Part shown: in pieces, positions 30,443 through 38,772 of the stretch
How the letters are laid out: each line of letters begins with the position of its first letter
Position numbering within the stretch: position 1 is the stretch's first letter
Assembly: GCF_009914755.1 (NCBI RefSeq)
Contig: NC_060942.1
Source of the DNA: the human T2T-CHM13v2.0 reference genome, Homo sapiens
DNA: 64,000 bases
Strand: one strand, 5' to 3'
Notes under the pieces: generated by a model
What the model saw: the letters and a program-made list of their open reading frames with translations, nothing else
Told to the model about the DNA's origin: nothing
Database searches by the model: none
Translations under genes and position numbers: made by a program

Positions 30443-32943
30443 CAACATCATTCTGGATGGACAAAAGCTGGATGCATTCCCCTTGAAAACTGGCAGAAGG
30501 CAAGGATGCCCTCTCTCACCACTCCTATTCAACAGAGTATTGGAAGTTCTGCCCTAGCCAATCAGGCAAAGGAAAGATTTGAATAGGAAGAGAGGAAGTC
30601 AAAGTATCTTTGTTTGCAGCTGACATGATCCTATATCTAGAAAAACCCATTGTCTAAGCCCAAAAGCTTCTTAAGCTGATAAGCAACTTCAGCAAATTTT
30701 CAGGATACAGGATCAATGTGCAAAAATTGCTAACATTCCTATACACCAGCAACAGGGAAGCAGAGAGCCAAATCATGAATGAACTCCCATTCACAATTGC
30801 TACAAAAAAAATAAAATGCCTAGTAACACAGCTAACAAGGGAAGTGAAGGGCCTCTTCAAAGAGAACTACAAACCATTTCTCAAGGCAATCAGAGGGGAC
30901 ACAAACAAATGGAAAAACACTCCATGTTCATGGATAGGAAGAATCAATATTGTGGAAATGGCCATACTTCCAAAGTAAATTATAGATTCAATACTATTTC
31001 CATTAAACTACCATTGAAATTCTCACAGAATTAGAAAAAAATCTTTTAAAATTCATATGAAACCAAAAAGAGCCCGAATAGCCAAGACAACCCTAAAAAA
31101 AAGAACAAAGCGTTATGCTACCTCACTTCAAGCTATACACAAGTCTACAGTCACCAAAACAGCGTGGTATTGGTACAAGAACAGACACATAGACCAATGG
31201 ACAGAATAGAGAACTCAGAAATAAGACTGCACATCTACAAACATCTGATCTTTGACAACCATGACAAAAACAAGCAATGGGAAAGGGATTCCCTATTTAA
31301 TAAATGGTGCTGGGAGAACTGGCTAGCCATAAGCAGAAAATTGAAACTGGACCCCTTCCTTACACCTTATGTCCAAAGTAATTCAAGATGGATTAAAGAC
31401 TTAAATGGAAAACCCAAACCTATAAAAACCCTAGAGGAAAATCTAGGCAATACCATTCAGGACATAGGCACAGGTAAAGATTTTATGATGAAAACACCAA
31501 AAGCAATTGCAACAAAAGCAACATTTGACAAATAGGATCTAATTAAATTGAAGAGCTTCTGCACAACAAAAGAAACCATCATCACAGTGAACAGTCAACC
31601 TACAGAATGGAAGAAAATTTCTGCAATCTATCCATCTAACAAAGGTCTAATATCCACAGCCTACAAGAGACTTAAACAAACTTACCAGTTAAAAAGAAAC
31701 AACCCCATTAAAAAGTGGGCAAAGGACATGAATAGACACTTCTCAAAAGAGTACATTCATGCAGTCAACAAACATGAAAAAAAGCTTAACTTCATTGATC
31801 ATTAGAGAAATGCAAATCAAAACCACAAAGAGATACCATTTCATGCCAGTCACAGTGGCTATCATTAAAAAGTCAAGAACCAATGGATCCTAGTGAGGTT
31901 GCAGAGAAAAAGGAATGCTTTTACACTGTTGTTGGGAGTGTAAATTAGTAGTTCAACCATTGTGGAAGATGGTGTGGTGATTCCTCAAAGATCTAGAGGC
32001 AGAAACACCATCTGACTCAGCAATCCCATTACTGGGTATATACCCAAAGGAATAGAAATCATTCTGTTATAAAGATACATGCACACTTACGTACATTGCA
32101 GCACTTTTCACAATACCAAAGACATGGAATCAACCCAAATGCCCATCAATGATAGACTGGATAAAGAAAATGTGGCATCTATATACCATGGAATACTCTG
32201 CAACCATAAAAAGAAATGAGACCATGTCCTTTGCAAGGACATGGATGGAGCTGGAAGGTGTTATCCTCAGCAAACTAATGCAGGAACAGAAAACCAAATA
32301 CCAGCTGGGTGTGGTGGCTCATGCCTGCAATTCCAGCACTTTGGGAAGTGGAGGCAGGCAGATCATCTGAGGACAGGAGTTTGAGACCACCCTGGCCAAC
32401 ATGGTGAAACCCCGCCTCTACTAAAAATACAAAAATTAGTCAGGTGTGGTGGCGCGCACCTGTAGCCCCAGCTACTCGGGAGGCTGAAGCAGGAGGGTTG
32501 CCTGAATCGGGGAGGCAAACGTTGCAGTGAGCCGAGATCGTGCCACCACTGAACTCCAGCCTGGGCAACAAAGTGAGACCCTGTCAAAAAAAAAAAAAAA
32601 GAAGAAGAAGAAGGAAGGAAGGAAGGAAGGAAGGAAAGAAGGAAGGAAACCAAGTACTGCATGTTCTCACTTATAAGTTGGATCTGAATGATGAGAACAC
32701 ATGGACACATCAAGGGGGAACAACACACACTGGGGCCTGTCGGAGGGGGGACTGGGAGTGAGAACATCAGAAAGAATAACTAATGGATGCTGAGCTTAAT
32801 ACCTAGGTGATGTGCTGATCTGTGCAGCAAACCACAGAGGCACCCGTTTTTCTGTGAAACAAACCTACACATCCTGCACATGTACCCTGGAACTTAAAAT
32901 AACAGTTGACGGAAAAATTGAAATAAAATAAAATAAATAAAAA
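30443..32943 (+). mobile_element. 5'-truncated older L1PA (3' half of ORF2 + 3'UTR), decayed
   Basis: Frameshifted ORF2 peptides ([29 protein letters not shown]), L1PA 3'UTR and A-rich tail. Confidence 0.95.
32303..32646 (+). mobile_element. AluSx-like inserted in L1PA, with A/(GAA)/(GGAA) tail
   Basis: TSD aaaccaa(a/g)tac. Confidence 0.93.
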
Positions 32944-32999
32944 TGCTAATACAGAATCATCTAAAAAAGAAAACTAAATAATAGGATAGAACTAAGTGG

Positions 33000-33310
33000 T
33001 TTTTTTGTTTGTTTTGTTTGTTTGTTTTTGAGACGAAGTCTTGCTCTGTCGCCCAGGCTGGAGTGCAGTGACCCAATCTCGGCTCACTGCAACCTCCCCC
33101 TCCCAGATTCAAGTGATTCTCCTGCCTCAGCCTGCTGAGTAGCTGGGATTACAGGCATGTGCCATCATGCCCAGCTAATGGTATTTTTAGTAGAGACCGG
33201 ATTTCGCCATGTTTTGGCTAGACTGGTCTCGAACTCTTGACCTCAAGTGATCTGCCCGCCTCAGCCTCCCAAAGTGCTGGGATTACAGGCATGAGCCACT
33301 GCCCCCGGCC
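33000..33310 (-). mobile_element. AluS
   Basis: Antisense dimer with TSD-like agaactaa. Confidence 0.93.
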
Positions 33311-35900: not shown

Positions 35901-36607
35901 AACAAAGGAATGGAGTTACCATGACTGGGGTTACTATGGTGATGATTGGTCTATCATCTAGTCTTTGGGACTAAGGAGAGGCTGACCTCACCTGAGCACA
36001 TTGCTGGTCACTTAATACCTAAATAAAATCAGGTCATTTTCACAGAGAAGCAGGGGAGAATGGCTGTTAAATAGTGACTGATATATGCAGTTATTTTAAA
36101 AATGAGTTAGCTCCATGTCCATACATTTGCCTGGATATCCACCATGAATTTTGAAATAAGAAAAGATGCTAAGTAATAGTCTCATTTAAGTAAAAATCCC
36201 TCTTATATATGGAGAAAGGGGTGAAAAAAGACACACACCAAGCTAGTAACACTATGTCCCCAAGGGCGGGTGGATGGGAGGAGTTGGGGACAGAACTTAC
36301 CAGGGTTTTCTTGTTTTTGTGTTGTTTCACTGACTGTAGAAAGTACACGCACTTTTGTATCTTTTGAAGCACAATTTACTAATAGATTTAAAATCAGAAA
36401 GGATAATAATTTAGTGAATTAGAAACTAAGGCATGAGGAATGGGTAAATGAAACACTGATTATTAGAGATGGCATGGCTGTAGTACAGGACTAAGTCATA
36501 AAGCAGAGTGAAGATGAAGACGGAGGAGAAGGGAGGGCCAGGTGTAACTTTTTCTCCTATGCTCCTGGTATCCCAGTTAAGTGAAGCACGCTTTGCCAGA
36601 TTATCCC

Positions 36608-38772
36608 TTTATTTTATTTTATTTTATTTTATTTTATTTTATTTATTTTTTTTTTATTATACTCTAAGTTTTAGGGTACATGTGCACATTGTGCAGGTTA
36701 GTTACATATGTATACATGTGCCATGCTGGTGCGCTGCACCCACTAATGTGTCATCTAGCATTAGGTATATCTCCCAATGCTATCCCTCCCCCCTCCCCCG
36801 ACCCCACCACAGTCCCCAGAGTGTGATATTCCCCTTCCTGTGTCCATGTGATCTCATTGTTCAATTCCCACCTATGAGTGAGAATATGCGGTGTTTGGTT
36901 TTTTGTTCTTGCGATAGTTTACTGAGAATGATGGTTTCCAGTTTCATCCATGTCCCTACAAAGGATATGAACTCATCATTTTTTATGGCTGCATAGTATT
37001 CCATGGTGTATATGTGCCACATTTTCTTAATCCAGTCTATCATTGTTGGACATTTGGGTTGGTTCCAAGTCTTTGCTATTGTGAATAGTGCCGCAATAAA
37101 CATACGTGTGCATGTGTCTTTATAGCAGCATGATTTATAGTCCTTTGGGTATATACCCAGTAATGGGATGGCTGGGTCAAATGGTATTTCTAGTTCTAGA
37201 TCCCTGAGGAATCGCCACACTGACTTCCACAAGGGTTGAACTAGTTTACAGTCCCACCAACAGTGTAAAAGTGTTCTTATTTCTCCACATCCTCTCCAGC
37301 ACCTGTTGTTTCCTGACTTTTTAATGATTGCCATTCTAACTGGTGTGAGATGATATCTCATAGTGGTTTTGATTTGCATTTCTCTGATGGCCAGTGATGA
37401 TGAGCATTTCTTCGTGTGTTTTTTGGCTGCATAAATGTCTTCTTTTGAGAAGTGTCTGTTCATGTCCTTCGCCCACTTTTTGATGGGGTTGTTTGTTTTT
37501 TTCTTGTAAATTTGTTTGAGTTCATTGTAGATTCTGGATATTAGCCCTTTGTCAGATGAGTAGGTTGCGAAAATTTTCTCCCGTGTTGTAGGTTGCCTGT
37601 TCACTCTGATGGTAGTTTCTTTTGCTGTGCAGAAGCTCTTTAGTTTAATTAGATCCCATTTGTCAATTTTGGCTTTTGTTGCCATTGCTTTTGGTGTTTT
37701 GGACATGAAGTCCTTGCCCACGCCTATGTCCTGAATGGTAATGCCTAGGTTTTCTTCTAGGGTTTTTATGGTTTTAGGTCTAACGTTTAAATCTTTAATC
37801 CATCTTGAATTGATTTTTGTATAAGGTGTAAGGAAGGGATCCAGTTTCAGCTTTCTGCATATGGCTAGCCAGTTTTCCCAGCACCATTTATTAAATAGGG
37901 AATCCTTTCCCCATTGCTTGTTTTTCTCAGGTTTGTCAAAGATCAGATAGTTGTAGATATGCGGCATTATTTCTGAGGGCTCTGTTCTGTTCCATTGATC
38001 TATATCTCTGTTTTGGTACCAGTACCATGCTGTTTTGGTTACTGTAGCCTTGTAGTATAGTTTGAAGTCAGGTAGTGTGATGCCTCCAGCTTTGTTCTTT
38101 TGGCTTAGGATTGACTTGGCAATGCGGGCTCTTTTTTGGTTCCATATGAACTTTAAAGTAGTTTTTTCCAATTCTGTGAAGAAAGTCATTGGTAGCTTGA
38201 TGGGGATGGCATTGAATCTGTAAATTACCTTGGGCAGTATGGCCATTTTCACGATATTGATTCTTCCTACCCATGAGCATGGAATGTTCTTCCATTTGTT
38301 CGTGTCCTCTTTTATTTCCTTGAGCAGTGGTTTGTAGTTCTCCTTGAAGAGGTCCTTCACATCCCTTGTAAGTTGGATTCCTAGGTATTTTATTCTCTTT
38401 GAAGCAATTGTGAATGGGAGTTCACCCATGATTTGGCTCTCTGTTTGTCTGTTGTTGGTGTATAAGAATGCTTGTGATTTTTGTACATTGATTTTGTATC
38501 CTGAGACTTTGCTGAAGTTGCTTATCAGCTTAAGGAGATTTTGGGCTGAGACGATGGGGTTTTCTAGATAAACAATCATGTCGTCTGCAAACAGGGACAA
38601 TTTGACTTCCTCTTTTCCTAATTGAATACCCTTTATTTCCTTCTCCTGCCTGATTGCCCTGGCCAGAACTTCCAACACTATGTTGAATAGGAGCGGTGAG
38701 AGAGGGCATCCCTGTCTTGTGCCAGTTTTCAAAGGGAATGCTTCCAGTTTTTGCCCATTCAGTATGATATTG
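36608..38772 (-). mobile_element. 5'-truncated L1HS, Ta subfamily (Ta-0 type), ~2.16 kb
   Basis: 3'UTR reads GATGAC-ACA-TTAGTGGG (Ta ACA) and AAACTTAGAGTAT (diagnostic G). ORF2 reads CCCAAAGGACTAT (G/C, Ta-0). Uninterrupted ORF2 C-terminal 636 aa. (TAAAA)n tail. Confidence 0.96.

What the first reader, a model, noticed from the sequence alone, without database searches (positions are those of the whole stretch)
30443..38772. Two L1s of very different age share the same 5' truncation nucleotide and form a ~2.15 kb inverted repeat
Seen: the old plus-strand L1PA begins tatata|CAACATCATTCTGGATGGACAAAAGCTGG at 30443. The young minus-strand L1HS begins catgg|CAATATCATACTGAATGGGCAAAAACTGG at 38772. 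Both start at the same base of the recalled ORF2 consensus (cccacagc|caaYatcatactg), so they are the same length once the Alu is removed, and they lie tail-to-tail 3.7 kb apart. Known: L1 5' truncation points are spread over kilobases. Inference, four options: (a) coincidence or a truncation hotspot; (b) the L1HS replaced an older inverted duplicate by gene conversion; (c) a nascent minus-strand transcript antisense to the resident L1PA paired with the incoming L1 RNA, tethering it and setting its 5' end; (d) the cDNA annealed to the resident copy. Options (c) and (d) would be a 'resident-element-guided' integration route and are speculative.
Basis: partly seen in the sequence, partly recalled or inferred. 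Interest (0 to 1): 0.8.

Follow-up and report, generated by a model that had tools for sequence, protein, structure and literature searches.

The report
Two neighbouring L1s share one start
Two separate LINE-1 insertions of very different age, lying tail to tail, really do begin at the same base of the element, but this is best explained as a chance coincidence between two ordinary truncated insertions.

Summary
An old plus-strand L1 (30443-32943, split by an Alu) and a young minus-strand L1 (36608-38772) both begin at the same L1 base, the third base of ORF2 codon 639. They form a 2.1 kb inverted repeat, about 83% identical, with 3.65 kb between the tails.

The young copy is of the Ta kind. 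Its ORF2 fragment is open, with 8 of 636 residues differing from solved ORF2p, and it carries the ACA motif.

The shared base is not a truncation hotspot. With one pattern design, the whole genome holds 2 other verified L1 ends there, against 0, 3, 0, 6 and 3-5 at five nearby control bases.

There is no sign of sequence exchange between the two copies, no flank homology and no chimeric joint. The young L1 has no target-site duplication. That is a known feature of 5'-truncated L1 insertions.

For one pair the chance of a match is roughly 1 in 3000, so tens or more such pairs are expected genome-wide.

Verdict: two independent insertions and a coincidence. Resident-guided integration is not excluded but has no support. 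Interest is low.

The parts
30443..32303 (+). Old 5'-truncated L1, ORF2 part up to the Alu insertion. Its first base is the third base of ORF2 codon 639.
   Evidence: 82.5% to the young copy over 1886 columns; aligns from base 1501 of L002 and L005.
32304..32646 (+). Alu inserted into the old L1, with its A-tail and a GAAG/GGAA repeat.
   Evidence: sequence; SRP/Alu-type matches at 32304-32420 and 32439-32587, + strand.
32647..32943 (+). Rest of the old L1: end of ORF2, 3'UTR and an A-rich (TAAAA)-like tail at 32913-32943.
   Evidence: 66.7% to the young 3' end; sequence.
33005..33310 (-). Alu in the spacer.
   Evidence: sequence; 33028-33309, - strand; pairs I5, I7-I9.
35307..35663 (+). Alu in the spacer.
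   Evidence: (35353-35638, + strand), the hub's mask list and (pair I5).
36608..36655 (-). Tail of the young L1: ten A's, then TAAA and TAAAA repeats.
   Evidence: (sequence).
36656..38772 (-). Young Ta-type L1, 5'-truncated, 2117 nt. It holds an open ORF2 fragment for residues 640-1275 (36864-38771) and a 3'UTR with the ACA motif.
   Evidence: (8 of 636 residues differ from 8uw3_A).
38773..39372 (-). 5' flank of the young L1. It is single-copy, not L1, and is not repeated after the tail, so there is no target-site duplication.
   Evidence: only itself in the genome; no shared word at the joints.

Best explanation
These are two independent L1 retrotransposition events at neighbouring sites, separated by tens of millions of years. 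Each was cut short during target-primed reverse transcription, and by chance both ended at the same template base. The old copy inserted first and later took an Alu into its body. The young Ta-type copy was primed at an A/T-rich site 3.65 kb away on the other strand. Its cDNA stopped at ORF2 codon 639 and was joined to the far side of the target without microhomology and without a target-site duplication, either by blunt joining or with loss of some target DNA. Shown: the shared start, the age difference, the absence of a hotspot, the lack of a duplication and the lack of sequence exchange. Inferred: the independence of the two events and the joining route.
For: Both copies start at the same base. 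They are 82.5-83.3% identical. The young one has an open ORF2 fragment 98.7% identical to solved ORF2p and the ACA motif. Passages of PMC7026601 call that motif Ta-defining, and its 29-mer has only 498 genome copies. The repeat stops exactly at the L1 ends, with no flank homology. No further L1 sequence lies within the 1.5 kb yardstick upstream of either start. Breakpoints are spread evenly around this base: 2 others at it, against 0, 3, 0, 6 and 3-5 at +12, +24, +36, +48 and +60. This gives the flat background that a coincidence needs. Among the 10 hits at this base, only our two lie within 10 kb of each other. Of 6 verified L1 ends with +-10 kb fetched, 0 had a neighbour with the same start. 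Insertions without a target-site duplication are a described class, tied to 5'-truncated L1 (PMC2912911 passages; PMC4245944 section 8).
Against: For this one pair the match has a prior of only about 3 in 10,000. That is my estimate plus a recalled length distribution. The young copy lacks a target-site duplication, so its 5' end was not resolved in the commonest way. That leaves room for an unusual route. The pilot test is very weak: 0 of 6 excludes only a very frequent effect, above roughly 40% of ends at 95% confidence. The empty allele and the ape orthologues could not be seen.
Confidence: 0.86

Rival explanations
1. Resident-guided 5' end. The new cDNA is antisense L1 and continuous with the + strand. 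It pairs with the sense strand of the old L1 3.65 kb away on the same strand. The unpaired 3' flap beyond the old copy's first base is trimmed, which sets the new end at that same base. The cDNA is then joined to the other target end by end joining.
For: The geometry allows it: the copies are inverted, close together and on one strand. The young L1 has no target-site duplication and no microhomology at its 5' joint, so end resolution was not standard. L1 cDNA intermediates can recombine with homologous chromosomal DNA in reporter cells (PMC13526784 passages).
Against: There is no positive trace. The young copy's 5' flank is not an inverted copy of the old copy's flank, and no old-type patches sit in the young copy. 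In the same paper, 3 mismatches in 150 bp already cut such recombination, through MSH2. Here the divergence is about 17%. Those events also needed a break next to the homology. In the pilot, 0 of 6 other verified ends had a matched neighbour. Chance alone predicts such pairs genome-wide.
Confidence: 0.05
2. Truncation hotspot. Reverse transcription or RNA integrity fails preferentially at this ORF2 base, so matches there are common.
For: Counting ours, this base has 4 verified ends, slightly above the control mean of about 2.6.
Against: Without ours it has 2, inside the control range of 0-6. Under a Poisson mean of 2.6, a count of 4 or more has probability about 0.26 (my arithmetic on those calls). 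One control base (+48) has more.
Confidence: 0.04
3. Replacement or gene conversion. An older minus-strand L1 with the same start once stood at 36608-38772 as part of an inverted duplication, and was overwritten end to end by Ta-type sequence.
For: There is no target-site duplication around a young element. Its patterned (TAAAA)n tail resembles the old copy's tail (pair I14).
Against: The homology stops at the L1 ends, so there was no duplication of the locus. The young copy is of young type from its first 29 bases through all 636 ORF2 residues to the ACA motif, with no mosaic. Only 3 of 19 private sites match the old type, and they are scattered. This option also only moves the coincidence back in time.
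Confidence: 0.02
4. One event: a twin-priming inversion or a template-switch chimera.
For: Inverted L1 segments that share a breakpoint are what twin priming makes. Several such joints turned up at the control bases (loci L028, L034, L035, L036).
Against: The two arms differ by about 17%, are 3.65 kb apart and have two Alus between them. The young copy's 5' flank is single-copy, and no small RNA family matches it.
Confidence: 0.01

Closest known systems
5'-truncated L1 (Ta-type L1HS) insertion by target-primed reverse transcription, with a blunt or truncated target site
   Same: It is colinear with the L1 3' end, has an A-rich tail, is truncated inside ORF2 and carries the ACA motif. Lack of a target-site duplication is a described outcome for truncated L1.
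   Different: Nothing in the element itself differs. Only its neighbour's identical start is unusual.
Twin-priming L1 5' inversion
   Same: Inverted L1 segments lie close together.
   Different: Twin-priming segments are the same age, adjacent and complementary in coordinates. Here both arms cover the same coordinates, differ by 17% and lie 3.65 kb apart.
Homology-driven recombination of L1 cDNA with chromosomal L1 (chimeric L1s, L1-mediated rearrangements; PMC13526784)
   Same: It has the same ingredients as the speculative option: a single-stranded L1 cDNA and a homologous resident sequence nearby.
   Different: Those events fuse the new sequence to the homologous one and need near-identity and a break. 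Here there is no fusion joint, and the copies differ by 17%.

Membership tests
Ta-type L1HS, 5'-truncated TPRT insertion | Colinear L1 sequence running to the natural 3' end | tested here: met
   ORF2p residues 640-1275 followed by the 3'UTR. The copy is 96% identical to natural L1PA copies over 1.5 kb.
Ta-type L1HS, 5'-truncated TPRT insertion | ACA trinucleotide in the 3'UTR | tested here: met
   gatgacACAttag at about 36750. The motif's meaning comes from PMC7026601 passages. Its 29-mer has 498 genome copies.
Ta-type L1HS, 5'-truncated TPRT insertion | A-rich 3' tail | tested here: met
   A 48-nt tail: ten A's, then TAAA/TAAAA repeats.
Ta-type L1HS, 5'-truncated TPRT insertion | Flanking target-site duplication | tested here: not met
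   No shared word of 10 or more at the joints within 1.5 kb. The best local match is 5 nt, and 90% of shuffles do as well. This is a known minority outcome, so it does not exclude TPRT.
Ta-type L1HS, 5'-truncated TPRT insertion | Endonuclease consensus (TTTT/A) at the priming site | tested here: inconclusive
   The tail abuts ...ataaa|ggg. Without the empty allele, the share of the A/T repeat that belonged to the target is unknown.
Twin-priming inversion | Both segments come from one event (same age) and abut each other | tested here: not met
   83% identity and a 3.65 kb spacer holding two Alus.
Inverted segmental duplication with later conversion | Homology extends into the flanks, and one arm is a mosaic of old and young tracts | tested here: not met
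   The arms stop at 30443 and 38772. There is no mosaic.
L1 truncation hotspot | Excess of independent L1 ends at this base over neighbouring bases | tested here: not met
   2 other ends, against 0, 3, 0, 6 and 3-5 at the control bases.

The most novel reading that the evidence does not exclude
The new L1's cDNA folded back onto the resident inverted L1 on the same strand. Its overhang was trimmed at the end of the homology, so the resident copy dictated the newcomer's 5' end. This would be a resident-guided truncation route for LINE-1.
Probability: 0.04. Interest if true: 0.7.

Novelty: already known. Interest (0 to 1): 0.12.

Why it matters
As it stands, this is an ordinary pair of L1 insertions, and the shared start carries no functional weight. 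It would matter only if a genome-wide census showed that young L1s beside inverted older copies share their start far more often than chance allows. That would reveal a homology-guided step in resolving the L1 5' end. One locus cannot show this. The lack of a target-site duplication around a Ta-type insert is of minor interest, as a candidate insertion-associated target-site deletion.

Tried and rejected
- **Hotspot.** I ran six whole-genome pattern searches and checked 21 hits by fetching them. No peak appeared. My first reading of the upstream 12-mers by eye overcounted: 5 of the 21 fetched hits (c, d, e, g, m) proved to be L1s that run on upstream with small indels, and 2 more (r, t) proved to be twin-priming inversion joints.
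- **Target-site duplication.** Exact words and local alignment against shuffles gave none for the young copy and nothing above chance for the old one. A 12-nt match (GAGAAAAAGTTA) lies 433 nt upstream of the L1 and 52 nt after its tail. I judged it chance, because it has no A-tail before it.
- **Chimera with another RNA.** The 5' flank occurs once in the genome, and Rfam gives only Alu/SRP-type and weak microRNA matches in 29500-39800.
- **Extra G's at the 5' joint as a cap signature.** Two of the three verified young ends at this base (ours and b) end in GG or GGG before CAAT. The third (a) does not, and one further GG hit (c) proved false, so I dropped the idea.
- **Sequence exchange between the arms.** None was seen.
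Full report
**What is there**

The region holds two L1 fragments in opposite orientation, with their tails facing each other.
- The old one runs on the + strand from 30443 to 32943. It is split at 32304-32646 by an Alu with its own A-tail and a GAAG/GGAA repeat.
- The young one runs on the - strand. Its body is 38772 down to 36656 and its 48-nt tail is 36655-36608.
- Between the tails lie about 3.65 kb with two more Alus, at 33005-33310 (-) and 35307-35663 (+).
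- The two L1s are 82.5% identical over 1886 aligned columns, or 83.3% over the first 1.5 kb.

**The shared start is real**

The outermost arms of the inverted repeat begin at 30443 and 38772 (I6). I used natural L1 copies from the same genome as yardsticks and built no consensus.
- Upstream of the shared base, 3 of the 5 copies fetched read ...gacaaacccacagc| (L001, L002, L005). L003 and L004 each differ there by one small change.
- An older L1 in the window reads ...gataaacccacagc at 52394-52407 and runs through the point.
- Against L002 and L005, both of our elements align from exactly locus base 1501, the first base after that stretch.
- Their flanks (tatata| and ccatgg|) do not continue the L1 sequence.
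- The young fragment translates without a stop into 636 residues that align to residues 640-1275 of solved human ORF2p (8uw3_A), with 8 differences. The first L1 base is therefore the third base of codon 639.
- No L1 sequence from the 1.5 kb upstream of this base lies next to either start, in either orientation. Both are true ends, not inversion joints.

**Ages**

The young copy carries gatgacACAttag in its 3'UTR. Passages of PMC7026601 call ACA the Ta-defining motif, and give ACG, GAG and others for other copies. The 29-mer around the motif occurs 498 times in this genome. The 29-mer at the element's start occurs 7422 times, because it is shared with older primate L1s. The old copy is about 17% diverged, has a poorly alignable 3'UTR (66.7%) and has taken in an Alu.

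**Is the base a hotspot?**

The genome could be searched by pattern, so I counted L1 breakpoints at this base (X) and at X+12, +24, +36, +48 and +60, using one design throughout. Five upstream places (-12, -8, -7, -4, -1) must differ from the L1 sequence. They are followed by a 23-nt word that is degenerate at the sites where our two copies differ. I then fetched the DNA around all 21 hits that looked like real ends by eye and aligned it to L005.

| Base | Hits | Verified real ends |
|---|---|---|
| X | 10 | 2 ours + 2 others |
| X+12 | 4 | 0 |
| X+24 | 5 | 3, one being the end of a twin-priming inverted segment |
| X+36 | 2 | 0, judged by eye only, not fetched |
| X+48 | 9 | 6 |
| X+60 | 45 | 3 ends + 2 twin-priming joints |

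- Of the other six hits at X, two run on upstream when fetched. Four are, by eye, a 12-nt internal deletion (three hits) or a 19-nt tandem duplication (one hit).
- About 38 of the 45 hits at X+60 are one recurrent 1-nt loss in a GGG run.
- The control mean is about 2.6. X has 2 without ours and 4 with ours. A Poisson count of 4 or more at mean 2.6 has probability about 0.26.
- The base is therefore not a hotspot.

**How surprising is the match?**

The design should catch roughly a fifth to a third of random flanks. That is my estimate from base composition.
- About 8-15 L1 copies then begin at any given base hereabouts, among the roughly 10^4 copies that reach this far (7422 by the exact word).
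- Only about a third of primate L1 copies are this long. This figure is recalled, not computed.
- The chance that a given second L1 starts at the same base is then about 3 in 10,000.

That is small for one pair but not for a genome.
- With about 500 Ta-motif copies and 1-2 L1 neighbours within 10 kb each, about 0.2-0.3 Ta-beside-older matches are expected. The neighbour figure comes from the six neighbourhoods, which held 1, 0, 4, 0, 4 and 1.
- Over all L1 pairs, tens to hundreds are expected. This rests on a recalled figure of about half a million L1 copies.
- A scan that reads every window should therefore meet such pairs by chance.

**Tests of the non-chance options**

- *Locus duplication.* There is no homology beyond the L1 ends.
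- *Conversion or replacement.* The young copy is of young type throughout. At 19 sites it differs from all five natural copies used. Only 3 of these (positions 319, 469, 916) match the old neighbour, with no cluster near the 5' end.
- *Chimera by template switching.* The 600 nt upstream of the young L1 occur once in the genome, and no RNA family matches them.
- *Guided 5' end by annealing to the resident copy.*
  - The geometry is possible, since the new cDNA and the old sense strand lie on one strand.
  - No trace exists, however. The young copy's flank is not a copy of the old copy's flank.
  - The reporter work in PMC13526784 (passages only) shows that such recombination needs near-identity and a nearby break. 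Three mismatches in 150 bp already suppress it, through MSH2. Here about 25 mismatches per 150 bp are present.
  - As a pilot, 0 of the 6 verified L1 ends for which I held +-10 kb had a neighbouring L1 with the same start. This excludes only a very common effect.

**The missing target-site duplication**

The young copy has none.
- No word of 10 or more is shared at the joints within 1.5 kb.
- The best local match between the last 40 nt of the 5' flank and the tail plus 60 nt of the 3' flank is 5 nt. That is matched or beaten by 90% of shuffles.
- The old copy shows only AATAAATA, which is no better than chance (58% of shuffles).
- Truncated L1 insertions with short or no duplications and with target-site deletions are described: PMC2912911 passages, PMC4245944 abstract and section 8 and PMC1920257 passages.
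- The long A-rich tail and the A/T-rich joint fit endonuclease-dependent priming. Without the empty allele, the pre-insertion site cannot be rebuilt.

**Print**

Four full-text searches listed no paper on a resident L1 setting a newcomer's 5' end, or on a hotspot at this base. I saw only listings for most hits and passages of the five papers named above. I opened no supplements.

**Verdict**

The best explanation is two independent, ordinary L1 insertions whose identical truncation base is a coincidence (0.86). The rivals are a guided end (0.05), a hotspot (0.04), replacement or conversion (0.02) and a single event (0.01). The kind is already known and interest is low.

Noticed in passing
window 36608-38772 and both flanks: A Ta-type L1 with an open ORF2 fragment but no target-site duplication. 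It may mark an insertion-associated loss of target DNA, which only an empty allele or an ape orthologue could size.
   Followed up: partly
G000, about 38 places listed (for example C1:247960889, C3:77266522): Many L1 copies share the same 1-nt loss in the GGG run at X+60..62 (ctggcacaagacaGGatgccc), which shifts the ORF2 frame. Either slippage recurs there or a lineage spread with it.
   Followed up: no
G000 C2:1393752, C9:10992883, C6:127430390: Three L1 copies lack the same 12 nt (caaacccacagc) just before the shared base, between two CAA repeats. A fourth copy (C2:198506170) has a 19-nt tandem duplication starting at that base.
   Followed up: no
window 32304-32600 (+), 33005-33310 (-), 35307-35663 (+): Three Alus form close inverted pairs (pairs I5 and I7-I9). 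Such pairs are the usual kind of substrate for double-stranded RNA editing if transcribed. No transcript is annotated here.
   Followed up: no
window 51099-53995 (+): A third, older L1 (about 75% identical to L005) runs through the shared base and served as an in-window check of the upstream sequence.
   Followed up: yes
L001 (G000:C1:1803428-1806456): This L1 copy has a breakpoint 18 nt upstream of the shared base. The sequence before it looked to me like L1 from elsewhere in the element (recalled, not tested), which would suggest an inversion or internal rearrangement.
   Followed up: no
L028, L034, L035, L036: Four of the eleven control-base hits fetched are twin-priming style inversions, with abutting inverted and direct L1 segments. 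Inversion joints therefore make up a fair share of L1 'ends' found by pattern.
   Followed up: partly
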